From the IMG/VR virus record IMGVR_UViG_3300045988_164075: a DNA stretch of 64,000 bases; one strand, written 5' to 3'. The first letter of the stretch is position 1; every line of letters begins with the position of its first letter. Both the position numbers and the translations under genes were made by a program. Below are positions 6,074 to 52,138 of the stretch, piece by piece. Origin of the DNA: a virus. The notes under the pieces are model-generated. The model did not search any database. It was not told where the DNA came from and was given only the letters and a program-made list of their open reading frames with translations.

Positions 6074-6155
6074 AGCAATCCTCTTTTATTGTTTTATCTG
6101 AAATTAAACTATTTTTAATAGTAGCTAATTTTTGATTCAATTTTATATATTCTAT

Positions 6156-16463: not shown

Positions 16464-19400
16464 TATTCTTTAATCTTTCTAATAAATAATTTTGAACATA
16501 TTCATCTAATACAAGCAAGTTTTCACCTAATAGTTCAGGTTGTTTAAATATTTGATAATACATATTAGCTGTTTCAGCAGATATTTCTTTATTAGAAAAT
16601 AGATCACTTAAATAGTTTGTTATAGACTTTCTTATATTAGAAGGTATTATATCTTTAATACTAATAAAGTATTCATACATTTGTTTATAACTGTTAAATG
16701 AATCAAATCTAAGTAATTCTCACTTATTATTGATCTTTGTTATTGTATACCCACTAGTTTCATTTTGCAAAGATATATAAAATGGAATAAAATTCAAAGT
16801 ATATGTTGGATTATCCTGAATCCGAACAAAATTATTTGAAGGTAAATTTGCGTTTTCTAATTTATTTTTAATTAGATTATCCATATCCTTTACAGTAATA
16901 AGCCTATATTCACCTGTTATAGAATCTATTTCTATTTGAGAATATGTGATATCGTTAGTTAAACGTTTTAATCTATCATTAATTTTTTCAATATTTTGAT
17001 TAATATCTAAACTAGTCTCAGGAGATAGATTATTTTCTTTTAAAAACGTATTAAATCTATTTAATTGTTCAACTTGTTCTTTTTGTTGATTAATTTCTTC
17101 TTGTTGAATAGATGTTTTAATAATTTGTGTTTTATCAATTGCATATATAGGTCCATGAAATTTAGATATATCTACTTTATAGTCTTTACGAGGATCTGTT
17201 AGGCCAAATATGTATCGAGTAATTGGTTCTTTAGTCTTGTGATCCTGTGCATAAATGCCATTTTTAAATAGACTAGAAGTAGACATAATACTATTCAGAA
17301 TATCTAAATTTTCAACTCCTGTAGATAAAGTATCTAATATTTCATTTGCTGTATGTTGTCATACAGAATTAACAGGAACTCATTTATATGTTCCATTAGA
17401 TTTTATATATTTTTGATAATTGTGTTGAGCTAAATAAGTTTGTAAAGTTTTGGGATCAATATGTTCTTTAAAATCTAATCCGTACATATTTCCTATTTTC
17501 TCAACTAATAAATAAATATTATCAATCGAATTACTTGAAACAGAAGTTATTTTCTCATCAATACTTTTAACTTTTTTATTGTCGAGACTATATAATACAA
17601 ATTGATCATACTCTTGTTTTACTAAGAATGATTTTATTTCATTTTGTCCAGTATCCTTATTTAAATAATTTAATGTAAACATAATTCCAGGAACTCTCCT
17701 ATAACTATTTTCCTTGGGAGTTCTATTAGACGAAGTATCTCGTTCTTTAGTTATGTGTAATCTTAGGTTATTAAATAAGATTTTTCTTATTTCTGAATTA
17801 GATTTTGCTAAGTTTAATATTTCTGTTGTAATTTGCCCTGCTCTAGTAGCGTAGACAACTTGATAATCTTGTCGAGCATGTTCGTTATAAATAGGGTTAG
17901 TTGATATACCCATTTCCTTAGCTTTTTCTATCTCTATACTTCTTTTTGCTATTTTAGCTCTAGACTCGATAATAATTTCAGATAATTGTTTTACTTGTTG
18001 AACTCCAAATAATACAAAACGCGCGTCAGACTGGACTAAATATGTAACATTGTTTTCAGAATCTAAAGTTGGATGCATATCCTTCTTAAATTCCATACTA
18101 TTAAGCATAAGATCACTACTAATTAAACCCATTGCCTTACCAGTAATTGCTTTTGCAACGGTGCGAGTGCGTTCATCTTTAATAGAATCTAACTCTTCAT
18201 CTTTAACTACAAAGGTAATATAATAGGGAAGTATTGTAAAATAATTATTAGCATTTAAATTATAAACGTCTCGATTTACTATACCATCAGAATCGTACGT
18301 TATATCTTGAATCATTTTAATGTCGCCATTATAATCTCCAAAACTATTAATAGTTAAAAGAATTGGAATACGTACATTTCGAACTCCTTTATTATCGTTA
18401 ATTGATATATCAGCTACTAATAAGCCTTGCTTACCTCTATTATATGGAACGATCTTTAACTTAGCGTCTTGTAACGAATTAACAATAGCTTTGTTTTTAT
18501 CTCTATTACTAGGTGCTAATAGATTTAATGAAATTTCTAGACGATTTTTTGTTTGATTATGTGTTTTATGATGCCCATGTAAAAAATAATTTGATAAACG
18601 ATAAACATACTGTATATACTTTGATTTAGGAATAGATTTTCTAAATTCAAATTGTTTATAAATAGAATTATCATTCTCATTTACATCATAGTCTCATAAA
18701 TTATTTGTAAATCAATCTAAGGTTAAATCAGATTCTATTGTTATATCTGTATTACTTGGTCTTAATAATGGAGCACTTTTTACAATAGAAGTAGTCTCAT
18801 CAGTTTTAGAATAAACTTTTGGTTTAGATTCTAAATTTGTTTCAGAAACAGTATCTTCAATTGCATTCTCTAGTGGAACTTCTCCTGACGGAACTGTATT
18901 TTGAGATGATAATTGGGTTTCGTTTAGATTACGTTCACCAATATCACTATTAGCAATAGTTGGTTCTGATTTTTGAGATTTATCAATAGGAGTATTTACT
19001 ACTGTAGGTTGATTCTCCTTTTGATCTTTATCAATTGTTGTTTGAGCAATAGGAGTTTCAGGCGTAGAAAACTCTGGTTCATAAGTTAAGTTAGAATATA
19101 CTGGATTACTTTCAATATTTAAAAGCGATCGTAGTCTTCAATTTTTAAACGCATCAATATCATTTTGTTTAATTTCAATGTTATTATTAACCGTTTCATC
19201 AAACTGTGTAGTTATATTTAAAGTATTTCTAAGATATTTATCGCTATCTAATATAACTGATCCTAGTGTTGAACGTTGTGTTAAAGTATATAGATTACGT
19301 AATGTACCTCACTCTTGAGCTTTATTTCTTCATTCTTTATCAATAACAACATAGTCAAATTCAGATCCTTGAACTGCATCTAAATTAATAACTTTAGCAT

Positions 19401-22400
19401 TTTGTGGCAATCCTGTATATTTTTTAGGATTATCTGTTATGATTGCTATATCATTTGATAAATGTGATAATTTGTTAATATAGTCTAAAAGTTGATCATT
19501 TGTATCTACAATTTTCTCTCCAACAAAAGTATTATTGTTTTCGTAATATTCTAATTTAATTCCGCTATTTCAATAAGATTTTGTATGATTCGACAACTGG
19601 ATTGAATCAATATCGGGATTATCTTCATAGTATTTAATTCCTTTTTCTAATATTGCATTTAATGTTATATAATTATCATTTTTTGCAATATTATTTGGAC
19701 GTAAAGTAGCGGTTAGATTTGGAGATTTAATTAGATATGTATCTTCAATCCCTCCAACTACAGTTTTTGAATTAATTGTAATTATAGAACTATCTTGTTT
19801 TTTATCTCCAAATGCATATACCATTACATTATTTGTAATAGCTCAATTAGATATTAATTCTAATTCAGGGCGAGTAAAATGACTTATCTCATCAATAAAT
19901 AAAATTTTATTTGGAGTATTATCAAATAAACTAGTTACCTTTGGAATTATAAAGTCTTTTAATGTGATATAATCATTATGTAATTCATAATCGTCGGTAG
20001 TTAACTCTCTTCCAAGGATAGCTTTAATAAAATCAGCTTTATTAAATATTTTACTATTATCTGCTTTAATTGAAGTTGCTAACTTACTAGCTTGCTCAGA
20101 AGTTGGGGCTAATGAAATAAAGGAACTTGTTTCATTAAACAGTGTTTTTAATAAATAACCTACAGCAGTAGTTTTACCTGTTCCTGCTCCTCCAAATGTG
20201 CAATAAAAATTATATAGCTTTAATTTATTTTTAATATAGTCGCTTAAATTTGGATCACTTGGAACTAAACCATTAATAATTTTATTAAATAGTTCCTTGT
20301 TGTAATTCATTGCGTATCCGATTCTTACAGCATGTTCCTGTGAAAAAATTGGAATTTTATCAAACTCATCACTAGATATAATTGGTTTTAGAGCTGCATA
20401 AAAATTTTGGCTCGGAGTAATTATAATAGATGCTAAATACATTAATACATCATAATCAGTTATAATATTATCATTATTAGTATTTAGATCAGTAGATTTT
20501 TGTTTATACAACTCTTTATCGTCAAATAATGCAATTAATTTATTCGCTAAATCATCATTAGTAAGTTTCTGTTCATAAATTGTTTCAAATACCTCTGTCT
20601 CAAATTTAATTGCCGAATCCTCAAAAGTATTAAAATTTTCTTCAGTAACTTCTTCTGTGGGTTTATACTTATTTCAAATTTCATTTAAATTAATATGAAA
20701 CATATCAAATACTCTTTGTTTAATAAGACTATTCTCATTTGTTAAAGAATTAACAAATAATTGTTTCATATTAATTGTAATATCTTTTTGAACACGAGCT
20801 TTTTGTTCTTGATTTTTCTGTGATACTTCGAGTAAAATATTTAGTTTATTTTCTAATAATTCAATATCGTTTGATAGATTATAAAATGTTTCAAAATCAA
20901 TTTCAGGTAAAGATAAATTTCCTAGGTATTTATTAATAGAATTATTTATACCTTCTCCATCAAAGTTTACACTAGCATTTAATATAGATTTTATTCCTTT
21001 AAGAAATAATAATAATTGTTCTAATTGAGTTTTAGCGTTTTTATCCTGAATAATATAATCTTTAATGTTTTTACTTGCTATAAATTTGTTATGTTCATTT
21101 GCAATAATGTTTAATAATTGGCTAGGTTGCCCACCTAAACTAATTGCAAATACATTCAATAATTCATATATAGGAGATGCCTTAACTTGGGATCTAATAT
21201 TATAATATTCATTTAAATATTCATCTAAACGATAAGTTCCAATTCTTGGAAATACATAATTAAAGAAATCTTCAATTTGATTTTCATCTAAATCAGTTTG
21301 TTCTAATTGATTCCTTATTTCAGCAAATTTAGATAACACTTGTTCAGGATCCTCATCTAAAGATGCTTGTAATTCATCTAACAAATTATTGAAGTTTTCA
21401 TATCCAGTTATACTATAGTCAAATGAAACTGGATTTCCCATTAACTCTAAGTCGGGATTATTTTTATATAAATTTTGAAGTCAGGTAATATAACGTTGTT
21501 TATAAGACAAACTATTTTCGTCTTGCTGTTTTTTAACAGAGCGTAATAAAGTTAATACGTCTAAATCTCCAAAATCTGCTGATAAATTATTATTTTTTAG
21601 ATAACTATAAAAATTTAATATTGACTGAGCATAATTATCTATATCAGTTGTTGTAGATGATATTGGACGATGTAATATATCTTGTCCTTCAGTAGATATT
21701 GGATTAGTAATAAGTAATGCTGTATTTTCAGTATATTGTTTTTGAATATTCTGGAGTATTTCTTTTTCCGAAATTAGTCTATTTATTTCCTCAGAATTTT
21801 TTTCCTCATTACTTTTAAGTTCCTCTATTTTAGCATTAATAGCATCTAAGTTATTTGCAATTCTACCTAATGTAGAATAACGTAAACCGTATATATTATC
21901 TGCAACTTTTGTTTCGTCATTTATTTTTAGTAGAGAGTCTTTTAACTGTTGACTTAAATTTAAAAATAAATCGTATGCTTTATAAACTTTAGCTTTTTCA
22001 TCTAATTGCGTATACGCACTAAAGTTTTCTTTAGCTGTTTTTTGTAAATCTTCATTTAGTAAATCTAAGTCTTTTCCATACATGGTTTTTACATAATCGT
22101 GCAGACCCATATTTACAAATGCCTGATTTATAGCACTATTAGTTGCAAAAATAGCTTGTCCAAAATAATATCCAGTACGTTCTCCATTTAATATAGCGTC
22201 TCTACGTGCACGTAAATTATTGATTTCTTGATTTAATTTTTGTATTTCTAAATTTTGTGCATTTTGTTCTGCAATTGCTTTTTGCGTTTCATTAGTAATA
22301 GGAGTGTTTGGAGTAGGTTGATTTAATTTAGATAATTCTGCAGATTTACGAACAATTTGTTCTGTAATGTTATTAAAATCACTAAATATTTGTGTAGTAA

Positions 22401-24501
22401 CTCCTGATGCTAGTGCGGCTTCGGCTACTTTATCATAAGGTCTCCCTTCTTGATCATATACTTGAAGTTTTTTTAATGTTTCATCAGATACTTTTAAACC
22501 TTCTGATGACATTAACTTATCTACTCTATCAATGTAATCAAGTAATTGATCATATACAACATCGTTTTGACTTTCTTCCTCCTCTGCATTATGAAACTTA
22601 ATTTGAGTTTCATCTCCAGTGTTTACTAACTCATATGTTTTTCCTGATAAGTTTACATCGCCTAATTTGCCCTTTTTATGTAAACGAGCTAATTCATTTC
22701 TTATATCATCAGTACGTCCTTGACGTATTAAATAAACAATTTCTTGAGCAGTTTGATTATCAGATGTAGTAGCTAAATTACTACTAATTCCGTGTAATCT
22801 ATTTTGTCATTTTCCATGTAATTGAAATACGGGTCCTCCAATTGCACCTCCAAAGAAAGACATAGCATAACGTTGAGCAGCATCGCTAGCTGATCAACCA
22901 AAATCTAAACGTCTTTCACTTTCAGTCATATCAATGCCTAAAGCATCTCCTGCAGCAAACAAAGCTTTGGTTAAATCAGAAGTTACTTCTTCCATTACCT
23001 CTTCTGTTGCTTCATTTAATGCAGAATCAACTAATTCATTACTACTATACTTTGCAAATTGATTTTGAAAAAATTGCTTTCCTCTAACGATAAAATTGGC
23101 AGCTTGTTTAGGAGTTGTAACAGATCATTTTGTTAAGTTTTCTTTTACCTCTTGCGCTAAATCTTTAACTGCTTTTTTAGCTGGATTTTGGTCTAAATAC
23201 GTTCCTTTGAATAAGAAATTTCTAAAGTAATCCATATTCATCAATCCATACATTCCTCCCATAACACTTAACATACCTAAACCTGCAACAGCATCAGTTG
23301 CCCCAGCATTTTTAAATTCTGAATAAGCTTGTTGAGAAGATGTACCTGCCATATAAGCAAGTGCTAGATTTCTACCTAATTTTTGTACTCGAACTGATTC
23401 TGGAGCTCCAGTTAAAATTCTTGGTATTTGTCCAATAACTCTTTGTTGGAAAAGTTGTAAAGATGTATCTTCAATCATCTTTCCAAGATTTTCTCAACTA
23501 AACATATTTTGTTGAGAATAATCAGAAACGTTAGAATCAAACCTAGCTGCATAACCTTCTATTTGATTTAATTTTTTAATAAAATCTGAATCATTATCTC
23601 CTCCAATAATTCCGTTAATACTTTTCATTAAAGTAGGAATTAATTGCGCTAATTCAGTTCCTGCAGATAAAGCTCCATACACTGATCCAACATATGGTAT
23701 TAACATAGGACCTACCTTAAATACTAGTTTTGATATAGTTCCTCCTAAACTTTTATCTAAACCATCAGAATCAAAAAAATCATATTTGTTTCACGCAGAT
23801 CCGTCTACTGTTAAAGTATCTTCAATACCTAAAACTTGCTTACCATATATTTCTCGATTACCTAATGTTTCATAATAAGTATCCCCATCTTCATTAAATT
23901 TGAGATCTCCTTTTTTATGCTGTAACGTTCGTCCATCAACTACATGTGTTCCATCTTCATCTCATGTAGCTAATACTAATGTAGGTCTATTTAAAGCTTT
24001 TCAAATTCCACCTTTTTCATTTGGAGTTCAATCTTCAAACTTCTGAGTTTCTCAATTAAATACTTTATTCTGTTGAGCTATTTCTCTAAAACTCATTGTT
24101 TGATTACCTCTACCAAATACATATTCTAATCCAGCAGAACGTCTTTCAGGATTTGCAACCTTTTGTATTGAAGGCAAATTATCTTTTACTTTACTTCCTG
24201 CAGGAGCAAAATAATCGAATGGATCATATTCATAAGTTTCTAAGAGTTTATTTTCAAACTTATTATTTGCATAATCATTATAGACAGTTAAGGCACTCTG
24301 ATAGAAACGATTAAATTTATTTTCATCAAATTGTCCATTCTCATTTTTAAAAGCATCAATTACTTCAGGAATATTTTTATAATATTCTCTAGTATTTATA
24401 CTTGTATTATCTGGAGTAATATCATTATTAGCAAAATCCTGTAGAGTCATATTAGGTTGGAATAGCAGTGTTGCAAACCAATCATTCTTCTTATTCTCCA
24501 T
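16453..24501 (-). CDS. giant virion-operon protein, 2682 aa, with Gly-zipper/hydrophobic N-terminal region and an embedded SF1 (RecD/Dda-like) helicase domain
   Basis: ATG 24501 (MENKKNDWF) to TAA 16453-16455. All 10 same-frame track fragments are joined by TGA only (every gap walked, no TAA/TAG). Walker A is FGGAGTGKTTAVGYL, Walker B is ILFIDEISHF (19843..20511 fragment), and DAVQGSEFDYVVID lies at ~19340-19380. It overlaps the next start by 11 nt. Confidence 0.8.
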
Positions 24502-32865: not shown

Positions 32866-35800
32866 TTATGAATAACTTAAAGTCATTAAAGTTTTTAATC
32901 CTGTAATAATAGCTAACTGTTTTCCTGAATATTTAACTCTTACTTTTAAAAACTTATCTCTAATTCTAGTTGATTGTATTGTATTGTTATAAATGATGTT
33001 ATTTTCATCTAACTTTCCGTTAATATATTTTGCAATACTTTCTTTATATAAAATAGGTTTAATTACAAGATGCCAAGAATCCTCTCTATATTGAATGTTA
33101 CCTTTAACTCTTCCGTATTTAATTATATTTTTAGCTTCCTGTGGAATGACTAAACTATATTGATTTAATACTGGATCTCAATCAATTTTAATATCTCATT
33201 TAGAATTTTTATGTAACTTAAAATCTTGAGAACGCTTAAATTTTGATCCTTCTTCTACATATTCTCCAACAGGACGCTGAGGATTATCGTTCCCTCAAAT
33301 ATAGCTTTTCTTTTCAGATTCATTATTTGCAAAGGTCTCAGCTTTATATATACCTGCTTTATTAAAACTATAACTATCTCCAATTATTTCAAATTCAAAG
33401 GATTCAGGCTCTGCGTTATTTGAAATAATCACAAGATTATTAAATATTTTATGTAAACCTGTTAAATTATTTACTACAAATTCAAATTCAAACGGATGCT
33501 GTTTATCATATCATTTTGTAGGTAATATCTGATTAGTGATATCCCTATCAAAATAGTTTATATCGTCAAATATACCTGCTCGACCGTGAACAAAAAATGC
33601 ATTATTTAATAATTCATTATATTTTTCTTTATCTAACGCTTTTAAATTATCGGAATCAATAGCAACTGCAATATTTTGTGTAACCGTACTACCTCAAATA
33701 TCAACTTTATTATCTTGATTTAGAGTTACTCCTGGAAACACTGTAATATTTAACAATAAATCATAATATTTAAATTCATAATCATCAAATTGTGTTCCTT
33801 GTTCTTCTTGCTTAATCTTAGTAGTAATTATTTTAGGATCTATTTCAATATAAGAAGTATTAGTCTCTGATATTAAAGGTAATACATATCCCGAATAATC
33901 TGATACATATTCTAATCCAACTATTCCACTATCTTCAACGGGCAGACTGTCATCTCATAATAATACTGGACAATTTTGAGAATCATTCGTTGAAAATGTA
34001 GAAATTGAGTTGATCCTAAATTTATACGTATTAAATAAGTTAGAATTGTATACTATTGCGGCTTTAAAATTATTAATATTATAATGCTTTGCTATCTCTT
34101 GTTCACCGCTTATAATAGGTTCTAAAGAAACATCTCATAAGTATTTTGGACTACTGAAATCATCGATTTTTAATAAATGTATTCCTATATCAGATTTACT
34201 TGCAAATACAGCACCTAAACGTTTTGCTCTTTCTCGATCTAACGAATAAAAAATATTATTAATATTTGCGGAATATAACGGGGTTCAAGTATATTCAGTT
34301 ATCCATTTATCTAGACGCTCATTATAACACAAATTCCAAGTTAAGTTACCGTTATAGAAAGTAAACATAACATCTCCTTTATACATGTTAAAGTGAGTTT
34401 TAACATTTCTAGATCCTATAACAGGGTATTTTTCTAATTCTTTTAAGTTAATATTATCATTTAAAAAACGTTGGACCTTAAAATCGGAAAGTAACTCAAG
34501 ACCTTTATTTTCACTAAAGCGCCATATTTTCTTAGCGTACGTATCTACTCCATAAATTCCTAATGGAGTTCTAACAATTGATTCTTTTCATATACTTCCA
34601 AAATCAGGAGAAATTAAAGTAATTTGATTTTGTAAGACTCCTGCTCCATACATGTGTATAGACTGTCCAGTATTTGTTGATATTAAAGCCTTTTCATTAA
34701 TTGGAATTATTCCTAATCCATGCTCAAATACACAGAAGAGATTAACACCTCAAGGTAACAATTTTACAATTGCACCATACTGTCTATCCAAATCTTTATA
34801 AGATAAACCCTGAAATATTCTATATGCATTTTGAAAACTATCTTCTACTTGTACATTACTAAACATTACTCTAGTATCAAAAAGTTCTTTAACATAAGGA
34901 ACATCTGGAACAATTTGATAACGTTTAGCACTTAAAGAAGTAGAATAACCTTCATTTAAGATAAAACTTTCAGGTACTTTACTTGTTGAAAAAACATTAT
35001 CTCCTTTTAAAGGATAAAACGATCTATTATTTCCCATTAAGGCTGCTTCTTCAGTATGTGTAGTATCCTCTGATCTTAATCCTAAATTATAATTAGATAA
35101 TACTTTAAACGTAATTCAAGAACCAATTGGAACTGTATTAACATCAGCTCTATTAATATTACTTCAGGAATCCTTATTCATACTAGTTAATCCTGAATAA
35201 TTATCTAATCATGTATTTGGATTTACAATTATTTCTGTTACAGGAGCGTCAGAATCAATAAAATTTCTTTGTAATCGTAACGTTATAGTATTAGTAAAAC
35301 AATCTCCTCTATAACCATCAATAACACTATCTGCTATAAAGGTATTTATATCGTATCTATCTGTAATTGTATAATAAGCAGATTGATCATTTGCTCTAAT
35401 TGTAAAATATTGCTTTAAAAATAATGTTGAATAATTAGAAATTCTAATATTATAAATACAGTTATCATCTAATTGTACATTTGTTGCCACAAATGGAACA
35501 TAATTACCTCTCGCTAATTTATAATTGTTTCAGTTATAACTTTTTTCAGATACAAATACAAATTGAGATACATCTTCTGCAGAACCTGCTCTAGTAGTAA
35601 ATCCCTTCTGATCTATAAATTTCAAGGGAGTATCATCAGGAACAAATAATAGTTTAGATTTAAAAATTCCACTATCTAAAGTAGCTTCTTTAAATGTTCA
35701 TTTATATCTCCTAGTAACTTGATTTACCTCTCCTGAAATAAATTTAGATAAAGTATATTCAGCTCCATTAAAAGTAGATTGTAGTGAAGGATTTACACAA

Positions 35801-37425
35801 GCATCTAAACATAATAATGCAGAAGAACCTTTATTGTTTATGTTTATAATTCTATCATTATATGATGTTGTAAGAACTGCTGAAGTTTGGCTTATGAAAC
35901 TTTCTGTTTCATAACGGCTAGTATTATCATTATATATAATCGGAACATAACTAGTAGTGTCAATTCCAATACTTAAACCTTGTGCTAATATAGTTGGGAT
36001 TCTTTTCTGTCTAACAAAGAAAAATCCTTTAACTTTATTTACTTTTAATTCAGAAACAATATCTTTACTTAATGTAAATTTAAAATATAAAGGTTTGGTT
36101 TCACCTTCAGAAAAAATACTAATATTAGGTAATTTAAAAACTCCTTTTGTATTTGATAGATTTTTTTCTTCAATAAATATATCTGCAGGTAAATAATTTA
36201 ATTTTTCACTATCTTTTATATATAGATTATTATATTTACTGTCTGAAGGTATATTCGTAGCTTCAAGTTTTGTAAATTGGCATCCTCTTAGATTATATAC
36301 AGGAGATAAAGAATCATCCTGCATAATATAAACAATGCCTAATCTGTACATCTCATCAGGTCAATATCCTAAATAGAAGTATGTATTTAAAGGATTATAG
36401 TATTCTGTTTGTTCAACACTATCGTTTTGTTGAATTTTATAATCACTGTCTAAATATCCAATCGTTTCATTTTTTTGTGTACAACGTACATCAATATAAT
36501 ACGATATTGTTTGTAAATCTCTATGATTTAATAAAATTCCTTGAGTATTTCCAAAAAATAACATATTTTGGACTTGAGCTTGAGTCTTAACTGCTGTAAC
36601 TAAATTATATTTAATATTTAATTGCTCCTCATCAATTTCTTTTACTTCCTCAAATCCATTTAAAGAAATTGTTATGGTGTTTTCAAGTATATCATAAGGT
36701 TTTATAACTTCATAACTTTTAGAATATTTAATTCCATTTAAATCACTTGAAGTTCTAGTATAATACAAATATACTCTAGAAAAAGTTGTATCAATATTAC
36801 TTAATTTTAATTCAATTGATTTATCTGTTAACTCTTCTAACAAAGCACCATATATTGTCGTAACATCACTAATTGTACCATGATATATAGATACTGTTCC
36901 AGATTCAGCTACAATATCTGTTTTATTGTAATCATTATCTGCTAATTTAATATAAAAAGTATAATTTCCTCCTTTTAATTGTCCATAATTACTAACCTCT
37001 ACTAACTGAATAACTGGTATACTATTTACATTTCTAAATAAACGTGTATCGCGATCAACGTTATTTTTATCGTATAAATTAGTTTGAGTAACTTGATTAC
37101 GACTTATTATTTTATATTTATTGTCTTCTGTAACACTGAAACGAGAATTAATAATTCTTGGAGGATTCTTATCATCATTTATTATTAAATTTACTGTTCC
37201 GTCATAGGAAGGTTGGCATTCTATATCAACAGGATTATTTAAATCTATACCTAATTCTGTACTTGGTACTTCAAAATCTTTAATCTGATCAGAATAACTT
37301 ATATCACTTTCTTGATATTTTACAGTTTCATCAGTACGATCGATAATATTATGTAATGGTTGATACTCATGTGCTAAATCTCCTTCTTGATTAAATTTAA
37401 TACACTGTATACCTATTTTTGTCAT
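32866..37425 (-). CDS. large tail protein, 1519 aa
   Basis: Fragments 36361..37425, 35698..36351, 35209..35490 and 34750..35037 share a frame. I walked 32866-34750 and all gaps as triplets and found only TGA, no TAA/TAG. TAA 32866-32868 lies 1 nt before the next ATG. Confidence 0.8.
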
Positions 37426-43147: not shown

Positions 43148-44287
43148 TTATTCTCCTGTAAGAGTAATAGTTTTGGTTGCTTCTGTAAATCCAGTTGCAG
43201 TAGCTTTAACTTTAACACTGCTTCCTGTAGCTGAAGATTTAACTTCTAACTGATCGCCAGTTAGTACAAGATTTCCACTGTCATTACCGTCAGGTAGAGA
43301 CCATGTAATATCTACGGGAGCAACTTCTCCTCCCTCTACGTTATATGCATTAGCCATCAGAGTAACCGTACTACCTTTAGCAATGCTATCGTTTCCTATG
43401 ATTTCTATAATTTTTTCTTTTGCCATAACATCCTCTCCAAATGCAGTTTTAAGTTTAGCTTCAAATGTTGCTTCTAATGTACTAGGAATATAGAATACAT
43501 GATTAGTAATTGAAACTAATCTTTGTCCTACTGAACCAATACCGCTCAAATTCTTTCTTTCAGCGATATAACGGAAAGAATATTGTGTATAAAGTTGTCC
43601 AGGAACAGGCTTTTCGTCTCCGTTGATAGAATTGTATCGAGTATTTGGATAGCTTGGGAAACGAAGATTTTCAATTAACCAGTCACCAGTTGCAAATGGT
43701 ACTTCATTGTCAGTTTTTGCTATAGTACCAACTACAGTCGATACTACATATTGACCTTCTGATGGAAGTACAGAATTTGGTTCATATTTTTCAATTACAA
43801 CTGATTCAAACATATCAGTAGCATCAGTTGCTGTAATAATTACATCATCGTCATCTACAGTAACTGTAATGTACTTATTATTTTCAGGAAGTGCTAATTT
43901 AATTGCGTTAGCAATTTTTGTAGCCATTAAAGCTGCCGTATTGTCGGTGCTATCTCCAACTACTGTAAATTCAGCATAAATAGGCTTTTGAAACTTCCAA
44001 ACTGCAGTTGCGTAATCGGCATAAAATTTAGAATTATTTTTCATATTAACCGTAACGCGATATTTACCTCCATTTGAACCAGAATTACCAGCTACTGCAG
44101 TAATTGTTGCAGTGGCTTTCGTACCTTCTGTACCTTTAGCTTTATAAACTTTTCCATCAGCAATATTTGTACTCTTGTAGTCTACTTTATATTCACCAAC
44201 ACGGAAAATTCTTAGTAAACCAGTAATTGCTTGTACATTTTTGTCTGTTACGCTATTTAAAATAGTCTCTTTTGTGTAATCAAACAT
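43148..44287 (-). CDS. capsid-associated protein with a C-terminal bacterial Ig-like (Big_2-type) domain, 379 aa (head fibre/decoration candidate)
   Basis: Intact track ORF, GC-richer, with 3 TGG and 0 TGA. The C-terminal ~80 aa (GSTVTLMANAYNV...DITWSLPDGNDSGNLVLTGDQLEVKSSATGSSVKVKATATGFTEATKTITLTGE) has the Big_2 pattern. A strong terminator follows. Confidence 0.7.
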   Translation of the reverse strand: MFDYTKETILNSVTDKNVQAITGLLRIFRVGEYKVDYKSTNIADGKVYKAKGTEGTKATATITAVAGNSGSNGGKYRVTVNMKNNSKFYADYATAVWKFQKPIYAEFTVVGDSTDNTAALMATKIANAIKLALPENNKYITVTVDDDDVIITATDATDMFESVVIEKYEPNSVLPSEGQYVVSTVVGTIAKTDNEVPFATGDWLIENLRFPSYPNTRYNSINGDEKPVPGQLYTQYSFRYIAERKNLSGIGSVGQRLVSITNHVFYIPSTLEATFEAKLKTAFGEDVMAKEKIIEIIGNDSIAKGSTVTLMANAYNVEGGEVAPVDITWSLPDGNDSGNLVLTGDQLEVKSSATGSSVKVKATATGFTEATKTITLTGE

Positions 44288-46007: not shown

Positions 46008-49000
46008 TTAGTCAGAGCTAACTAAAATAAATGAACGATAAGGATTGAATACGCCTACGCCTGCGTCTATGTTATTGTTAATCATTATATTACTATAATG
46101 TACAGACTATATCTTTAACTTATATATTTAAATATGAAACCTTTAGTTTGTTTTCTGAGTCCTTTAGCAACGTCTCTACATTTTGAAAATTCTTTAGCAC
46201 ACGCTCCTACAGTATCTCATACTTTAATTAGATTATTATTTAAATCGTATTGAGCAATTTTACGGCTTTCTCCAATTTTTAATTTTGGAAGTGATTGATA
46301 CACTTCTTTAGATTTTAAAATGTTATAAATTTCAGAAGGGTCCTTTAAAAAATAGTAACCTTTTGCTGAATTTTTTTTATTTAATGCTGAATATAAATTT
46401 GATTTAGTTATATCAAAAGATTTATATATATCTTCAGTATTTTCTCATTCAGCAATTAAATTTCCTTTTAAATCAAATTGATAAATTGTCGAAAACTTGT
46501 TTATCGTATATTCTTCAATATTTAATTTATCATATCTATTATAAGATCAGAATGAATTTTTGTAACTTCTTTTTTGTTTACAAGCATTATTAAAATTTTG
46601 ATAACTACATCCAAACTTTTCAGCTAAGTCTTTTATTCCAAAATATTCTTCTCAGAATTCGCCATTTAATTTATAACGATATACTGTTTTAAAACAAATC
46701 CCAGGATTAATTCCACCTAAACTAGTATTGTAATTATCTTTTCTTTTAATAAATTCTTTTGTTACAATCTCCTCCTCTTTTTTATATGCATCTAACTCTT
46801 CATTATAAACATATAAAATAGTTCTTCTAAAATTAGAGTATCCATATTTTTTTAGAGCGTATTGAAAAGCTGTTTTTGGATTTTTTAATAAATATCCAAT
46901 TTTAATTCCATTACCAATATATCCGTCAAATATATCTGGATTACTTGTTTTGTGTACCCCAATATAGATTTTTCCGTTAATTAAACACGTTGTACAATAA
47001 ACTATATATTTCATATTATTTAAGTTATCCTCTATTTTCCACTATGTTTAAGTGTACGCTCATTCGAGCTAGTCGTTGAACCTTACTTAGGATTACCTTA
47101 CTAGGCTTATCTTATCTAAGTCTTGGCTGCTGATTGTCCCAAGGGAGTTTCCAGCAATTAAAAGGATTTTTATATTATTATCACTAATAATAGGGACCTA
47201 CGCTGCGTAATTTAAGCCCCAGTTAATATATTTAGAAGCTGCTACAGGAGACGAAACTTGACCGCTTGACGTTCCGTTTTGTCCACCAACACCATTAATC
47301 CAGTTATGAACAATATCACAACCTTTAAATGTAAACATTTGAAGTGCTGGTTTGCCAGTTGCTGCATCTGCCGTTAGATCAAGGAATATACCGTATTTCT
47401 TATCAGGATATTCAAAATCAAACGAACGATCAATCTTAAATGTAATTTGATTCATTTATGTTAACTTATATTTTCATATAAGATCAGACTATATCTTAAT
47501 TTAATATACTATTACCATATATTAAATTCTCCCTATTTCGGAATAAATCCTACTCTACTTGGTTATTTTACAATATCTTTCTTATTGTATATCCTTTCGA
47601 TAGTCGTTGAACGTTTTCTAATAATTAGAACTTCGCTGCTGATTAGCATGTGTAATATTTACATTTAGCCTTCCAGCAATTAAAGGAGTTTTCTTTATAA
47701 TTAAAATATAAAGGAGCAATTATTTACCCGCAAATTCATAAGATTGATATGTTGCACCTAAATCAAGATATCCGTTAGAAGCTTTCGAGAACAAGAATGT
47801 TCCAACAGTCTTCCAATCACGAATCCAAGACGAAAGTGCATTTTGAACTTCATGCCACATCAACGTGTTGCAAATAAAGATATATTTGTTACCCGTTGGT
47901 CTTTCCGATTTAGTAGTCATTTGAGCAAGTACCTTATTAAAGATACGAACATTTAGATGTCCACTAAATACATATTTTCCAGCAAAACGTTCAATTTGGC
48001 TGATGATACCATCGCCAGAAATAATCATATTTGTGTTAACTTATATTTTCATATAAGATCAGACTATATCTTAACTTTATATACTGTTACCGCGTATAAA
48101 GTTCTCCCCGTTTCCATTTGATCAAATGTACTCTACTCATTTATTCATTAAGAGATTTCTTCTTAATTATACTTTCGATAGTCGTTGAACTTCCTTAAAT
48201 AAATTATTTAAGTTTAGCTGCTGATTGTCTTCATCTTTCATGTTCAGAGTTTCCAGCAATTAGAGGAGTTGTTTTAATTAGTTTACTAATTTAGCAGCCC
48301 ATTATTTCTTTAGGTTGCTGTGTTTCGGGATCAAAAATCTTAGGTTTGCCAAATTTATCTACATTAGTTTTACCCCAAAGTAATGCGTTATTACGAGCAA
48401 ACATGTAGGTATCTAAGCAATCTTTTTGTGCAGGATTAAGTTTGTAAACAGGATCGTCTTGCTGACCTTTACCGATTTGGATAAATACATCTTCCATTGC
48501 GGCATATTTAGCAGACCAGCTTACATCTGCACGATGGGTCGAGATAAATGTCCGATGCTTTTCGGTATTCATTATGTTATCTTATAGTTTCCTATAAGTT
48601 CAGACTATATCATTAACTTTCCTTTAATTTAAATATGAAATTTTTACAATGTTTACTTTGGCCTTTTATACAGCGTCGAACGCCTTGTCCATATTGTTGT
48701 ATCGCTTCCGTAATTGAGGAAAATTCTTTAATAAAGTTCCCTTTTAAATCAAATTGTTGTACAATCTGTTTCTGGTTATTTAATTTTAACTGTTTTGCGC
48801 AATCGACTTTTTCTAAATATACCTGAAATCCTTTAAATGTTCTACCTAAACGAATTGCTGAAGATATAGATGAAGAACTTTTAAGTCCAAATTCTCTTGC
48901 ACAAGCTATTGGAGAAGAAAATTCTTTATAAAAAGTTCCATCTAAATTATATAGGTATATTTTACAATTTTTAATTGACTTTGTTTGAGTTAAAGGAAAT

Positions 49001-51020
49001 TTTTCAAAAAATTCTCTAGAATAATATTTACCATTCACAGAATATTTACCTTGTATGGCCCTGTTAATAGTAGTTCTACTTACGGAATACTTTTTTATAA
49101 TATCTGTTACAGAATCATAACTTTTAATAAAATCTAAATTTTCATTAAATTCATAAATACTTCCAGGATTGAAAATATTAAAATCTTGAATGTTTAATTT
49201 AGATGTATAATAGGTTGTTCATAAACTTTTTTGTGAAGTAGATTTAAATTTAACCGCATTTTCAATACTAGTTGTAGAGCAACCAAAACATTCCGCAGCT
49301 TTTTTATACGAACTATAAGAATCAATAAAAGCTCCTTCAAGATCATATTGGTAAATAGTAATAGATTGATCTGGACCTTTTTTTCCTCCAACAATAGCAT
49401 TATATACATACGGTTTTTTTATAAACTCTTCATTTACAATTTTTGATTCTAAAGAAAATGCTTCTTCTGCTGTATCAAATACAGCTAATGTATATCTTCT
49501 AAAAGCGTTAACTCCATACTTATTTATAGCATATTGAAAAGGAGTCTTAGAATTCTTATATGTACTTGGTTGATTAAAATAACAACCGCAACCTAAATAT
49601 CCATCAAATATATCAGGATTTTTTGTTGAGTGAACTCCTATATAGATTTTATTATTTATTGTATTTACTGTAATATATAGAATTGTTTTCATATTTATAC
49701 TTTTATAAAGTTATCTCCCATTTCAGACTGTAGTCTTACTCCCTATTGGGATAGTCGTTGAACCTTATTTAGCATTTCGTCAATGACGCTTATGTAATCT
49801 AAATCTTGGCTGCTGATTACCATATTACTTTTAACTTAGGCTTCCAGCAATTAAAGAGATTATTCGATGTTGCTTACGCAACAAAGGAGCAATACATTTT
49901 TGTTTTACTCTGGTATTTTGTGTAACCTTCCTCCAAGTTACAACTAATTTTCTTACTGTTTCCAATAAGTTTAGACTATATCACCCTCTTTACTTCTATT
50001 ACCGTTATAAAGAGGCTCTCCGTTTCGGTGTTACCCTACTCTACTCACTTCTTCACTTATATATTTCTTATAAGCTATGTTTTCGATAGTCGTTAAGCAC
50101 AATCTCTATATAAGAGATCTTCGCTATGGATTGGCATATCTTATTTATTATAAGACTTAGCTTTCCCATAATTAGAAGAGTTTAATCGAGTAGCTTACGC
50201 TACAAGTGCACAAAGAAGTTTATGCATCTCAGGTTGATAGTTCGTTAAGAAACGCGTATTCATACCAGGCTGACAAGCAGAAAGATCAAGTACTTCACTA
50301 TAATCGTCACCTTGTAATTTACCAACTACTTCCCAATCGTTGTCGCGACGTCTAATCGGACGATTTAGAACAATAACCTGTTGACGAGAACCTTCAATAA
50401 TAAAGGTATCGTTTTTCTGATAGTAGTTTTCAGGGAAATGGAAGATAATATCTGATCCATTTGCGCCATTACCTTCAGGTACAGTTAGGAAGTGTACTCT
50501 TTTAATACGGTTTACATTAATATCCCATTCAACCATGAACGAGTTAATACTTTGAAAAGCATTGGGTCTACCTTTGTCTAGAGTATATACGTTCATTAAT
50601 GCTTCAGTAAGATGCGTAGCAGTATACTGATCATACAATGAAGATACGATACCTAAACGAGCAGGATTTGCCATGCTTGTTGTTATCCTATAAGTTTTTT
50701 ATCTTATAGTTCTTACAATTTACCATCTTGTAAGGTCGGCATACGTTTTCATCTAATAGATGTTGCGTACTCTTGGAGATATTATATTCTTTATAAATAA
50801 AGTTTCAATCTCTATGCTCTACGGTGAATATATATATTATTATATATTTTACCTCGGTGTTGCCGCTGAGAATTAGGACGGTTTCGCCGATTTTACGCAA
50901 TTTTTCAATAAGTATTTCTACCTAAAGGGGCGCTCATCCACCCAAGAACTTCATAAAGTCCTCTGCAGTACGAGTCGAAGCCATTTCGGGACGTACTGTT
51001 GTAAAATTAGATATTCTCAT
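46008..51020 (-). CDS. putative major capsid protein, a mosaic gene of 7 exons and 6 group I introns, 476 aa after splicing
   Basis: Exons are 50940..51020, 50222..50671, 49907..49951, 48312..48569, 47726..48025, 47215..47452 and 46008..46066, totalling 1431 nt (477 codons including TAA). The joined frame is open, with 9 TGG and 0 TGA. The capsid assignment rests on position (after an acidic scaffold-like gene), size and expression signals, not on a search. Confidence 0.7.
46067..47214 (-). mobile_element. group I intron E with GIY-YIG endonuclease (1148 nt)
   Basis: P1 is GGGGCU/GGUCCC (U.G at the junction) and P10 is GCGU/ACGC. P TAATTGCTGGAAAC, Q CAATCAGCAGCC and R GGTTCAACGACTAGC lie at ~47071-47160, and S AGATATAGTCTG at ~46100-46113. 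The P9 hairpin CATTATA-GTAA-TATAATG is followed by an end at ...AACATAG. Confidence 0.85.
46115..47014 (-). CDS. GIY-YIG homing endonuclease (299 aa, four in-frame TGA=Trp)
   Basis: MKYIVYCTTCLINGKIYIGVH is the GIY...YIG motif. Track ORF 46652..47014 continues through TGA (hand translated) into repeated DNA-binding modules (YQFDLKGNLIAE(W)ENTEDIYKSF, QYDLNNNLIKV(W)DTVGACAKEF). The TAA at 46115-46117 abuts the S element. Confidence 0.85.
47453..47725 (-). mobile_element. group I intron D, ORF-less (273 nt)
   Basis: The 5' site follows GCGGGU (P1 GGGU/GCUC). P, Q and R are at ~47600-47690, S at ~47482-47494. The P9 hairpin CTTATAT-GAAA-ATATAAG is followed by the tail TTAACATAAATG. Confidence 0.8.
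48026..48311 (-). mobile_element. group I intron C, ORF-less (286 nt)
   Basis: P1 is ACAGCAACCU/GGGCUGCU (8 bp, 1 mismatch). P10 is GAAAUAAU/AUUAUUUC (8 bp). P, Q and R are at ~48180-48270, S at ~48060-48072. Its 3' 39 nt are identical to intron D. Confidence 0.85.
48570..49906 (-). mobile_element. group I intron B with GIY-YIG endonuclease (1337 nt)
   Basis: P1 is GAGU/GCUC and P10 is GUAUU/AAUAC. The P2 hairpin is GTTGC-GTAA-GCAAC. P, Q and R are at ~49750-49860, S at ~48601-48612. The P9 hairpin CTTATAG-GAAA-CTATAAG is followed by the tail ATAACATAATG. Confidence 0.85.
48613..49692 (-). CDS. GIY-YIG homing endonuclease (359 aa, one in-frame TGA=Trp)
   Basis: Track ORFs 49219..49692 (MKTILYITVNTINNKIYIGVH) and 48613..49038 are in the same frame. 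The 180 nt between them were hand translated and contain only TGA at 49219. The TAA at 48613-48615 abuts the S element. Confidence 0.85.
49952..50221 (-). mobile_element. group I intron A, ORF-less (270 nt)
   Basis: P1 is UGCAU/GUGCA. The P2 hairpin is GTAGC-GTAA-GCTAC. It has P AATTATGGGAAAGC, Q AATCCATAGCG (a compensated P4), R GCTTAACGACTATC and S GTGATATAGTCTAAAC. It ends after the P9 hairpin CTTATTG-GAAA-CAGTAAG. Confidence 0.75.
50672..50939 (-). mobile_element. putative divergent group I intron between a 27-codon leader exon and the main capsid ORF (268 nt)
   Basis: This is a GC-rich, hairpin-dense insert. The candidate P1 is GGGU/GCCC after ...UUCUUGGGU, and the candidate P3 is UUGCGU/ACGCAA. 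There is a GAAA-capped hairpin TAGGTA-GAAA-TACTTA. The 3' hairpin CTATAAG...CTTATAG plus tail GATAACAACAAGCATG resembles the other introns. It lacks the canonical R/S sequences. Confidence 0.5.
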
Positions 51021-51064
51021 AATTACTTATTAAAAATTTTGTTTAAAAAATATAACTTTTATTC

Positions 51065-52138
51065 TTATCTATAATATTTATCGTATAGATCAGAAAGTGT
51101 TTTAGGTTTTTCAGATTTATCGTTAGCATTAGTTTTATCTACTACTGTTTGACTAGCAGAAGAATTTTTATTACTTTTTGCTGTACGACGTTCCTGTTTT
51201 AAAATATCTTTCCAATATTCGCTAATATTTGAAATAGCATCTTGTCCAAAAAGTCTATACCATGCTAGTTCAACTAAAACTTTTGGATCATTTAAATCTT
51301 TAAAAAACTGACTATATCCATTAGTATCTTGTTCTAGTAAATAAGATAATATTTTAGATTTTTCATCATCTTCAATAACCAAAACATCACTTTCTGGATC
51401 TTTATAATCAAAAGATATTTCTTTAAAATTAGAAACAGATTCAGTTAAAGCAGAACGAAGTTGATTATATTCCTCTTCTTCTCTTCTTTGTGCTTCTAAG
51501 GCAGCTTCTTTCTCTTTTTCCTTATAGTCATTTCGAATAATCTCAACTTTCTTTTTAAATAAATCTTCATTCTCCTTTGCTTTATCTAATTCATACTTTA
51601 ATTCTTCATCTGACATACTAGTATATCTTGCTTTTAAATCTGCAAAGTATAATTCATCATCAGAATATGAATCTACATCGTAGTGTTGTTCTGGAGCATT
51701 ATTATTTAATGAAGCTTTATATTCTTCAACAGCAGTCTGTTTAAAATAATCTATTGCTTGTTCTAGTGTAACTCCATTATTTCTAAGCCACTGTACAGTG
51801 TTTATTTCTGATTCAGATAAATCAGGAGTAGAAAGTTCTTTGAGAATTGTTAACTGTTCTTTTCCGCTTAAAGAATTAAAATCTACTTCTTGAATTTCTC
51901 CATCTTCTGTTTCATATTTAATCTTTGAAACATCTTCAATACCTTTCTCTTTTAAGAATTCTTCAATAGGATTAATATCTACTTCTTCATTTGAATCACT
52001 ATTACTTTGATTCTCTAATTCAGGTTGACTAATCTCTCCTGTCTCAGTTGTACTAGATCCTTCTACCTCAACTTGCTCAGTTGTAGTAGTTTTATTATCT
52101 TCTAGTAAACTATCAAATAAATTTGGTAATTCTGCCAT
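51065..52138 (-). CDS. acidic coiled-coil protein, scaffold-like (357 aa from ATG 52138)
   Basis: This is track ORF 51065..52168, but its first 10 codons overlap the promoter -7 box, so ATG 52138 (MAELPNLFDSLLEDNK) is preferred. It is Glu/Asp/Lys-rich with 3 TGG and 0 TGA, and lies immediately upstream of the capsid gene. Confidence 0.7.
   Translation of the reverse strand: MAELPNLFDSLLEDNKTTTTEQVEVEGSSTTETGEISQPELENQSNSDSNEEVDINPIEEFLKEKGIEDVSKIKYETEDGEIQEVDFNSLSGKEQLTILKELSTPDLSESEINTVQWLRNNGVTLEQAIDYFKQTAVEEYKASLNNNAPEQHYDVDSYSDDELYFADLKARYTSMSDEELKYELDKAKENEDLFKKKVEIIRNDYKEKEKEAALEAQRREEEEYNQLRSALTESVSNFKEISFDYKDPESDVLVIEDDEKSKILSYLLEQDTNGYSQFFKDLNDPKVLVELAWYRLFGQDAISNISEYWKDILKQERRTAKSNKNSSASQTVVDKTNANDKSEKPKTLSDLYDKYYR

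What the first reader, a model, noticed from the sequence alone, without database searches (positions are those of the whole stretch)
46008..51020. Putative major capsid gene split into seven exons by six group I introns (71% of the locus is intron)
Seven coding segments join into one open 1431-nt frame (476 aa plus TAA). They are separated by inserts of 268, 270, 1337, 286, 273 and 1148 nt (3582 of 5013 nt). Five inserts show the textbook core on the coding strand: P AATTGCTGGAAA, Q AATCAGCAGC, R GTTCAACGACTA and S AGATATAGTCTGA. They also have a GNRA-capped P9 hairpin and a terminal G. Introns in crAss-like structural genes have been described, but this density in a single ~1.4-kb CDS is extreme. 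Virion assembly would depend on six sequential ribozyme reactions.
Basis: partly seen in the sequence, partly recalled or inferred. Interest (0 to 1): 0.9.

Follow-up and report, generated by a model that had tools for sequence, protein, structure and literature searches.

The report
Phage capsid gene with six introns
The major capsid gene of this gut crAss-like phage really is cut into seven pieces by six self-splicing group I introns, but this kind of intron-riddled capsid gene has already been described for the same phage group, and close relatives carry seven.

Summary
Four inserts pass Rfam's group I intron threshold. A fifth scores 45.6 bits. The sixth (intron 1) scores only 20 bits, but covariation with canonical introns at the same site supports it. 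Hundreds of uninterrupted homologs align colinearly. Near-identical relatives with empty sites confirm junctions 2, 3, 4 and 6 to the nucleotide.

One correction: intron 2 ends 18 nt further downstream. It is 288 nt, exon 3 is 27 nt, and the product is 470 aa, not 476.

The protein is a crAss-type major capsid protein. Introns 3 and 6 carry homing-endonuclease ORFs that read TGA as a sense codon, presumably Trp.

The phenomenon is known. Yutin et al. 2021 described a Zeta-group crAss-like capsid gene split into five fragments. Six introns is more than published, but relatives in IMG/VR have seven, with 9-nt exons. This is a new member of a known kind. Splicing itself is inferred, not shown.

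The parts
50940..51020 (-). Exon 1 (81 nt, aa 1-27, MRISNF...KFLG)
   Evidence: It starts at the ATG at 51020. Residues R17, E20, D21, K24 and G27 are invariant in 23 homologs. It ends in U, paired with G in P1.
50672..50939 (-). Intron 1 (268 nt, no ORF): divergent group I intron
   Evidence: RF00028 gives only 20.1 bits, E 0.005 in a local search. A homolog sits at the same site in L058 (nhmmer E 3e-27). Canonical introns (76-84 bits) occupy the same site in L079 and L082. Covariation test: 96.6% of cells paired, 22 of 42 pairs with compensatory changes, 0 of 500 shuffles as high.
50222..50671 (-). Exon 2 (450 nt, aa 28-177, ANPARLG...QPEMH)
   Evidence: Colinear with homologs. P174, E175 and H177 are invariant.
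49934..50221 (-).
Evidence: RF00028 74.2 bits. The empty site in L072-L076 reads ATGCAT|GAAGAGGGT.
49907..49933 (-). Exon 3, a micro-exon (27 nt, EEGYTKYQS)
   Evidence: All 23 homologs have PE[ML]H directly followed by xxGYxKYQSN.
48570..49906 (-). Intron 3 (1337 nt) with a homing-endonuclease ORF in the P8 loop
   Evidence: RF00028 gives 54.0 bits for the 5' part and 27.1 bits for the 3' part. The empty site in L072-L076 reads CAGAGT|AATACCGAA. P10 is 5 bp.
48613..49692 (-). HEG ORF of intron 3 (359 aa, one in-frame TGA)
   Evidence: PHROG 314 homing endonuclease E 1e-22. NUMOD1 E 7e-20 and I-HmuI NUMOD-like. The N-terminus ILYITVNTINNKIYIG looks like a GIY-X10-YIG motif by eye.
48312..48569 (-). 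Exon 4 (258 nt, aa 187-272)
   Evidence: Colinear with homologs; N187 and P272 are invariant (A3 numbering).
48026..48311 (-). Intron 4 (286 nt, no ORF)
   Evidence: RF00028 71.8 bits. The empty site in L069 and L071 reads CAACCT|ATTATTTCT. P10 is 9 bp.
47726..48025 (-). Exon 5 (300 nt, aa 273-372)
   Evidence: Colinear with homologs; G372 and N373 flank the next junction.
47453..47725 (-). Intron 5 (273 nt, no ORF), 72% identical to intron 4
   Evidence: RF00028 70.6 bits. Pairwise identity. The junction is gap-free in all homologs. No empty-site allele was found among the close relatives.
47215..47452 (-). Exon 6 (238 nt; ends inside the codon for Y452)
   Evidence: The junction splits a codon (T|AC), which rules out independent translation of the pieces.
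46067..47214 (-). Intron 6 (1148 nt) with a homing-endonuclease ORF in the P8 loop
   Evidence: RF00028 45.6 bits, E 2e-9 in the local search, below the gathering score of 50. L074 and L075 (98-100% identical exons) join exon 6 nt 238 directly to exon 7 nt 1. L071, L072, L073 and L076 have a 281-nt ORF-less intron at this site.
46115..47014 (-). HEG ORF of intron 6 (299 aa, four in-frame TGA, no TGG)
   Evidence: PHROG 314 E 1e-23. NUMOD1 E 7e-10. Translation.
46008..46066 (-). Exon 7 (59 nt including TAA; ...YAGVGVFNPYRSFILVSSD*)
   Evidence: Y452, N459, P460 and Y461 are invariant in homologs.

Best explanation
This is the major capsid protein gene of a TGA-recoded, Zeta-type crAss-like gut phage. 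Six mobile group I introns have colonised it. The gene is transcribed as one ~5-kb pre-mRNA. Each intron folds into the group I core, with P1 carrying a U-G pair at the 5' splice site, P3-P9, the P7.1/P7.2-type insert typical of phage IA introns, and a terminal G. Each intron excises itself by two guanosine-initiated transesterifications. The exons are aligned on the internal guide sequence by P1 and P10. The result is a 1413-nt mRNA for a 470-aa HK97-fold capsid protein. Introns 3 and 6 each carry, in the P8 loop, a GIY-YIG/NUMOD-type homing endonuclease. That enzyme would cut intron-less alleles in co-infecting relatives and spread the intron by recombinational repair. The other four introns are ORF-less. 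What is shown: the RNA family matches, the junctions, the colinearity, the empty-site alleles and the covariation. What is inferred: splicing in vivo, homing activity, and translation of TGA as Trp.
For: RF00028 hits at or above the gathering score for introns 2-5, and 45.6 bits for intron 6. Intron 1 is supported by covariation with canonical group I introns at the same site. P1 has a U-G pair and the intron ends in G for all six. P10 is 5-9 bp for introns 2, 3 and 4. There are 552 homologs, mostly uninterrupted, and the window's spliced product aligns gap-free at all junctions once intron 2 is corrected. Empty sites at J2, J3, J4 and J6 occur in alleles with 98-100% identical exons. All junctions lie at invariant residues. 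The same introns recur at 99-100% identity in contigs from several samples, so this is not an assembly artefact. Capsid identity: PF23898 Crass_capsid is matched by 15 of 24 family members (three of them checked against Pfam's own threshold and passing it); Foldseek top hits are the phicrAss001 capsid protein, E 3e-13; PHROG major head protein E 1e-3. HEGs. The published precedent in the same phage group is PMC7886860. Splicing of predicted group I introns in gut phages has been seen in metatranscriptomes for another phage group, PMC12880540.
Against: There are no RNA or protein data for this phage, so splicing is inferred. Introns 1 and 6 are below Rfam's gathering score. P10 is weak for introns 1, 5 and 6 (0-3 bp contiguous; 4 bp with a one-base bulge for intron 6). 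The window's own protein does not reach a Pfam hit: capsid identity rests on its homologs and on a low-confidence AF2 model of a 78% identical proxy (pLDDT 52.5, TM about 0.3). No empty-site allele was found for J1 or J5 among the close relatives. Pfam's GIY-YIG model did not hit the HEGs.
Confidence: 0.9

Rival explanations
1. The capsid protein is made as several separate polypeptides, each translated from its own start codon, and the inserts are spacers that are never removed.
For: Four of the six inserts end in ATG and one ends in TTG. As a result, the ORF finder lists exons 2, 4, 5 and 6 as ATG-started ORFs.
Against: Exon 3 is 27 nt, and exon 7 is 59 nt with no start codon. Junction 6 splits a codon. 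The ATG-containing tails of introns 3, 4 and 5 are homologous intron sequence. Five inserts match a ribozyme family at E down to 5e-17. Near-identical alleles lack individual inserts precisely. Relatives have 9-nt and 18-nt exons.
Confidence: 0.02
2. Intron 1 is a decayed relic that no longer splices. The protein starts at the ATG at 50674 (MANPARLG...), and exon 1 is dead.
For: RF00028 scores only 20.1 bits. The P, Q, R and S core strings are not conserved. P10 is 2 bp. An ATG lies exactly at the intron-exon boundary.
Against: Exon 1 keeps all five family-invariant residues. A homologous divergent intron is kept at the same site in L058, whose capsid is only about 75% identical, with compensatory changes in P3, P5 and P9.1. 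P7 is kept as GCAUA/UAUGC against the canonical GACUA/UAGUC (read).
Confidence: 0.06
3. The reader's original junction 2 is right (intron 2 = 270 nt, 476-aa product), or both 3' sites are used.
For: The G at 49952 directly follows the P9 hairpin, where the Rfam model ends. The frame stays open. A 3-bp P10 is possible.
Against: No homolog has the six extra residues. The empty-site allele joins H directly to EEG. The 18 nt are part of a 3' tail of the kind introns 3-5 also have after P9 (11-14 nt there). P10 at the downstream site is 7 bp and contiguous with P1.
Confidence: 0.05

Closest known systems
Intron-split MCP gene of Zeta-group crAss-like phage cMAG OLRF01000054 (Yutin et al. 2021, Nat Commun, PMC7886860, Fig. 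7a)
   Same: It is the same gene family (crAss-type MCP) and the same kind of phage: relatives on 150-178 kb contigs, TGA or TAG recoding that switches between relatives, and heavy intron load. The MCP coding sequence itself is free of recoded stops, while intron ORFs elsewhere in the group carry TGA.
   Different: The published example has five fragments (four inserts, three of them recognised through endonuclease domains). Here there are six introns, four of them ORF-less and found only at the RNA level. Splice sites are mapped to the nucleotide. I did not test whether the window is the same species as that cMAG.
Phage IA-type group I introns with GIY-YIG endonucleases, for example T4 td with I-TevI (textbook knowledge, not tested here)
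   Same: There is a group I core with an insert between P7 and P3'. A GIY-YIG plus NUMOD endonuclease ORF is looped out of the ribozyme. The insertion sites are highly conserved sites of an essential gene.
   Different: T4 has one intron per gene, in nucleotide-metabolism genes. Here six sit in one structural gene, and the HEG ORFs need stop-codon suppression.
Cluster J mycobacteriophage capsid-gene intron (Pope et al. 2013, PMC3706429)
   Same: An intron interrupts a major capsid gene, and the paper reports splicing.
   Different: It is a single intron in an unrelated phage and capsid family.
Jug jumbo gut phages (PMC12880540)
   Same: These are gut Bacteroidales phages with many small ORF-less group I introns in essential genes. 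Splicing was supported by metatranscriptomes for 37 of 76 predicted introns.
   Different: They have about 18 introns spread over 360-400 kb, with two or three fragments per gene and no recoding.

Membership tests
Group I intron (Rfam RF00028) | Covariance-model score at or above the curated gathering score (50 bits) | tested here: met
   Introns 2, 3, 4 and 5 score 74.2, 54.0, 71.8 and 70.6 bits. Introns 6 (45.6 bits, E 2e-9) and 1 (20.1 bits, E 0.005 local) do not reach it.
Group I intron (Rfam RF00028) | Conserved helices P1, P3-P9 supported by covariation (tested for intron 1, the insert without a good model score) | tested here: met
   Intron 1 was aligned with its L058 homolog and three canonical introns. 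96.6% of cells are paired against 30-45% when partners are slid. 22 of 42 pairs have compensatory changes. 0 of 500 shuffles reach the score. There are only 5 sequences, and the structure was derived from the same alignment.
Group I intron (Rfam RF00028) | 5' splice site after a U that forms a U-G pair in P1; intron ends in G; P10 with the 3' exon | tested here: met
   The U-G pair and terminal G are present for all six. P1 is 3-6 bp on the exon side. P10 is 7, 5 and 9 bp for introns 2, 3 and 4, but only 2, 3 and 0 (4 with a bulge) for introns 1, 5 and 6.
Group I intron (Rfam RF00028) | Precise absence from otherwise near-identical alleles (mobile insertion with exact boundaries) | tested here: met
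   J2 and J3 are empty in L072-L076, J4 in L069 and L071, and J6 in L074 and L075. This was not found for J1 or J5 among the close relatives; more distant homologs are uninterrupted there.
Group I intron (Rfam RF00028) | Guanosine-dependent self-splicing | not testable with these tools
   This needs in vitro transcription with GTP, or RNA-seq.
crAss-type major capsid protein (Pfam PF23898 Crass_capsid) | Profile match above Pfam's gathering score | tested here: inconclusive
   The window's spliced protein gives no Pfam hit at E <= 0.01. 15 of 24 family members match at E <= 0.001, best E 3.7e-14. Homologs P0001, P0003 and P0035 score 34-50 bits against a cut-off of 27. The window protein is 61-78% identical to these proteins.
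crAss-type major capsid protein (Pfam PF23898 Crass_capsid) | HK97-type fold resembling a solved crAss capsid protein | tested here: met
   The AF2 model of P0001 (78% identical proxy) gives as its top seven Foldseek hits the phicrAss001 capsid chains (7QOF, 7QOH, 7QOI), E 3e-13 to 5e-12, followed by other phage capsids. Caveat: the model is poor (pLDDT 52.5, TM about 0.3).
GIY-YIG homing endonuclease | GIY-YIG catalytic domain plus DNA-binding NUMOD or IENR modules | tested here: inconclusive
   NUMOD1 is matched (E 7e-20 and 7e-10), as is PHROG 314 'homing endonuclease' (E 1e-22 and 1e-23). Pfam's GIY-YIG model did not hit. The motif ILY-X10-YIG is seen only by eye.
Zeta group of crAss-like phages (Yutin 2021) | Placement in the Zeta clade in trees of conserved proteins | not tested
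   Only circumstantial evidence is available. Relatives lie on 150-178 kb contigs. Recoding switches between TGA and TAG among relatives. Intron density is high. Neighbouring genes have no PHROG hits.

The most novel reading that the evidence does not exclude
The capsid gene of this lineage is an active battleground rather than a passive dumping ground. The 83 sequences examined (the window plus 82 loci) show roughly a dozen or more distinct insertion sites. Alleles with 98-100% identical exons differ in which sites are filled, in which intron fills a site, and in whether it carries an endonuclease. Intron-encoded endonucleases would cut the capsid gene of co-infecting relatives that lack the matching intron. 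That is interference competition, as shown for a PhiPA3 intron endonuclease (PMC11620839). Stacking introns would then be selected as immunity plus weaponry. The endonuclease ORFs use only TGA for Trp, while the capsid exons use only TGG. Endonuclease production would therefore be gated by the phage's suppressor tRNA, independently of capsid translation.
Probability: 0.2. Interest if true: 0.6.

Novelty: new member of a known kind. Interest (0 to 1): 0.35.

Why it matters
The locus gives a nucleotide-resolution example of how far group I introns can load a single essential phage gene: six here, seven in relatives, with exons down to 9 nt. It also shows that protein-domain-based intron detection misses most of them, because four of the six have no ORF. 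In practice, gene callers will break this capsid gene into fragments, and TGA recoding compounds the problem. The presence/absence polymorphism among near-identical phages is good material for studying intron homing and phage-phage competition in the gut. The phenomenon itself (intron-riddled MCP genes in Zeta-group crAss-like phages) was published in 2021.

Tried and rejected
- Megablast of window 30000-54000 against GenBank phages found no match.
- A profile of the capsid family against PDB sequences found no hit at E <= 0.01.
- Pfam on the window's own spliced protein gave nothing.
- PHROGs on the four flanking genes and a 1095-aa ORF gave nothing, so synteny could not be used.
The proxy model is of low confidence, so TM-scores are not meaningful.
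- No tRNA was found in the window, so the suppressor tRNA could not be identified.
- MFE folding of intron 1 alone was not significant (z = -1.85). Comparative analysis was needed.
- The RNAalifold helix at columns 117-124/182-189 of A2 was dropped as poorly supported.
- P7 of intron 1 could not be scored formally, because MAFFT places its 5' strand one column off relative to the canonical introns. It was read by eye only.
- Inteins, group II introns and translational bypassing were considered and rejected. The inserts have stops in all frames, are too short for group II, and match RF00028.
Full report

Yes. The seven segments give 1431 nt with no internal stop. The six inserts are 268, 270, 1337, 286, 273 and 1148 nt, which is 3582 of 5013 nt. 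Every upstream exon ends in U and every insert ends in G.

Rfam's group I intron model (RF00028) hits four inserts at or above its curated threshold when the whole 64-kb window is searched: 74.2, 71.8, 70.6 and 54.0 bits, with E from 5e-17 to 6e-11. A more sensitive scan adds intron 6 at 45.6 bits and the 3' end of intron 3 at 27.1 bits. These are the only RF00028 matches anywhere in the window.

Intron 2 carries variants of them. The S string occurs in introns 2-6.

**2. Are the junctions right?**

tblastn against GenBank phages found two gut phage records (MT835470, MT835492) with an uninterrupted homolog covering residues 1-472 in one piece. A search of the large protein collection gave 552 homologs. 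The great majority are uninterrupted proteins of 450-480 aa, up to 78% identical, on contigs up to 177 kb.

In an alignment with 23 of them, five junctions are gap-free and fall at invariant residues: G27; S186|N187; P272; G372|N373; G451|Y452 (numbering of the 470-aa product). Junction 2 is different. The window has six residues, KISCNL, immediately after it that no homolog has.

IMG/VR holds seven contigs whose exons are 98-100% identical to the window but whose intron content differs. They supply empty-site alleles:
- L072-L076 read ...GAGATGCAT|GAAGAGGGT..., so J2 is empty and H is followed directly by EEG.
- L072-L076 also read ...CAGAGT|AATACCGAAAAG..., so J3 is empty.
- L069 and L071 read ...CAACCT|ATTATTTCT..., so J4 is empty.
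- L074 and L075 join exon 6 nt 238 directly to exon 7 nt 1, so J6 is empty.

So intron 2 runs from 50221 to 49934 and is 288 nt. Exon 3 is a 27-nt micro-exon (EEGYTKYQS). The CDS is 1413 nt and the product is 470 aa. Introns make up 3600 of 5013 nt, or 71.8%.

RNA-level logic agrees. On the internal guide sequence of intron 2, the 5' exon (UGCAU/GUGCA) and the corrected 3' exon (GAGGAAG/CUUCUUU, 7 bp) pair contiguously. Introns 3 and 4 have P10 of 5 and 9 bp with the proposed 3' exons.

**3. Intron 1**

This is the one insert without the textbook core. Searched alone, it gives a full-length but weak RF00028 match (20.1 bits, E 0.005). Its single-sequence fold is not significant (z = -1.85).

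Comparative data settle the question. L058, whose capsid protein is only about 75% identical, has a homologous intron at the same site (nhmmer E 3e-27). L079 and L082 have canonical group I introns (84 and 76 bits) at that site, with homologous P1, P2 and P9-P9.1 regions.

RNAalifold on five of these sequences recovers P1 (with the U-G pair kept in all five), P3, P4, P5, P8, P9 and P9.1. Counting pairs on that structure gives:
- 96.6% of cells paired, against 30-45% when partners are slid;
- 22 of 42 pairs with compensatory changes;
- 0 of 500 shuffles reaching the observed score.

This rests on five sequences, and the structure was derived from the same alignment. P7 reads GCAUA/UAUGC against the canonical GACUA/UAGUC (by eye). 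I conclude that intron 1 is a divergent but structurally intact group I intron.

**4. What the gene is**

The window's own product gets only a weak PHROG 'major head protein' match (E 1e-3) and no Pfam hit. However, 15 of 24 family members match Pfam PF23898, 'Crassvirus major capsid protein', with best E 3.7e-14 (the three tested also pass Pfam's threshold).

An AlphaFold model of the closest uninterrupted homolog (P0001, 78% identical) is poor overall (pLDDT 52.5). Even so, its top seven Foldseek matches in the PDB are the phicrAss001 capsid protein chains (E 3e-13 to 5e-12, probability 1.00), followed by other HK97-fold capsids. The capsid assignment is well supported, through homologs.

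**5. What the introns carry**

Introns 3 and 6 have ORFs of 359 and 299 aa looped out of P8. The ORF ends overlap the 3' strand of P8 (read). Both match PHROG 314 'homing endonuclease' (E about 1e-23) and NUMOD1. Their N-termini look like GIY-X10-YIG, but Pfam's GIY-YIG model did not hit.

Both ORFs are open only if TGA is read as a sense codon. That fits the whole window: the longest ORF grows from 441 aa to 2,691 aa when TGA is read through. Long minus-strand ORFs contain 168 TGA against 29 TGG.

The capsid exons have 0 TGA and 9 TGG. The two endonuclease ORFs have 5 TGA and 0 TGG.

The introns are not one recent family:
- Introns 4 and 5 are 72% identical to each other.
- Intron 2 is 60-62% identical to those two.
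- Introns 3 and 6 are 65% identical to each other.
- Intron 1 is 42-51% identical to the others.

**6. Wider picture**

Of the 83 sequences examined (the window plus 82 loci), 31 have at least one intron in this gene and 52 have none. Insertion sites seen include aa 14/15, 21/22, 27/28, 177/178, 180/181 (the commonest), 186/187, about 194, about 262, about 268, 272/273, 278/279, 372/373, 427/428 and 451/452.

Among the near-identical contigs, the same site can hold an ORF-less intron or an endonuclease-carrying one:
- J6 holds a 281-nt intron in L071, L072, L073 and L076, against 1148 nt here.
- J4 holds about 1.3 kb in L075.
- J5 holds about 1.2 kb in L072 and L073.

L069, L071, L072, L073 and L076 carry seven introns. 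I assembled L069 explicitly. Its seven introns are 267-1148 nt, each preceded by U and ending in G. Its exons include pieces of 9 and 18 nt. The product is full-length and almost identical to the window's. So six introns is not the maximum even within this species-level group.

**7. Comparison with what is known**

Yutin et al. 2021 (PMC7886860) defined the Zeta group of crAss-like phages. [quoted passage not shown] Fig. 7a of that paper shows an MCP gene split into five fragments with no recoded stops in the MCP itself. Those are the same features seen here. A 2023 review repeats this (PMC10136315).

Introns there were detected through endonuclease domains, so ORF-less introns like four of the six here would be under-counted. 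Splicing of predicted group I introns in gut phages has been supported by metatranscriptomes in Jug phages (PMC12880540). An intron in a capsid gene was shown to splice in Cluster J mycobacteriophages (PMC3706429).

I did not run a phylogeny, so Zeta membership is circumstantial.

**8. Verdict**

The mechanism (self-splicing, homing) is inferred from strong sequence and comparative evidence, but no RNA or protein data were available.

This is a new member of a known kind. Six introns is more than the published example, the map has nucleotide resolution, and the site polymorphism is striking. It is not a new phenomenon.

Noticed in passing
whole window; e.g. ORFs 16453-24501, 10758-16463, 32866-37425 (minus strand): The phage reads TGA as a sense codon, presumably Trp. 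The longest ORF is 441 aa under code 11 but 2,691 aa when TGA is read through. Long minus-strand ORFs hold 168 TGA against 29 TGG. No tRNA gene lies in the 64 kb, so the suppressor must be elsewhere or host-encoded.
   Followed up: partly
46008-52138 and 43148-44287 (minus strand): The capsid exons (0 TGA, 9 TGG), the acidic scaffold-like gene at 51065-52138 (0 TGA, 3 TGG) and ORF 43148-44287 (0 TGA, 3 TGG) avoid TGA. The endonuclease ORFs inside the capsid introns use only TGA (5 TGA, 0 TGG). So the host gene and its parasites differ in their dependence on suppression.
   Followed up: partly
9899-10636 (minus strand): A 245-aa LAGLIDADG_2 homing endonuclease ORF (Pfam E 2e-18, five in-frame TGA) lies between ORFs 8931-9839 and 10758-16463. 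It may mark another intron, or a free-standing endonuclease splitting a large gene. There is no RF00028 hit there.
   Followed up: no
L069 8087-8095 and 8365-8382; L072 10643-10658: Close relatives have exons of 9, 18 and 16 nt flanked by group I introns on both sides. The 9-nt and 18-nt exons are from the L069 assembly. The 16-nt exon in L072 is read. Five contigs have seven introns in this gene.
   Followed up: yes
48570-48580, 48026-48039, 47453-47464, 46067-46083 (minus strand): The 3' tails after P9 in introns 3, 4 and 5 (and, more loosely, intron 6) are homologous: (A/T)TAACA(C/T)AA(AT)ATG. This is why several exons appear to start right after an ATG and are listed as separate ORFs.
   Followed up: partly
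47196-47208 versus 46053-46066 (minus strand): Intron 6 nt 7-19 (ACGCAGCGTAGGT) nearly repeats exon 7 nt 1-14 (ACGCAGGCGTAGGC). This may be a by-product of the guide sequence pairing with both exons, or a trace of the insertion event.
   Followed up: no
L002 (MT835492.1) 6001-7425: This relative's uninterrupted capsid gene has four in-frame stop codons; the first was read and is TAG, the other three were not checked. Relatives therefore appear to switch between TAG and TGA recoding, and here the capsid gene itself is recoded.
   Followed up: partly
L078 445-710, L081 5248-5514, L077: A canonical group I intron related to intron 1 in its peripheral helices sits at a different site (after aa 14). 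L077 shows the empty site.
   Followed up: partly
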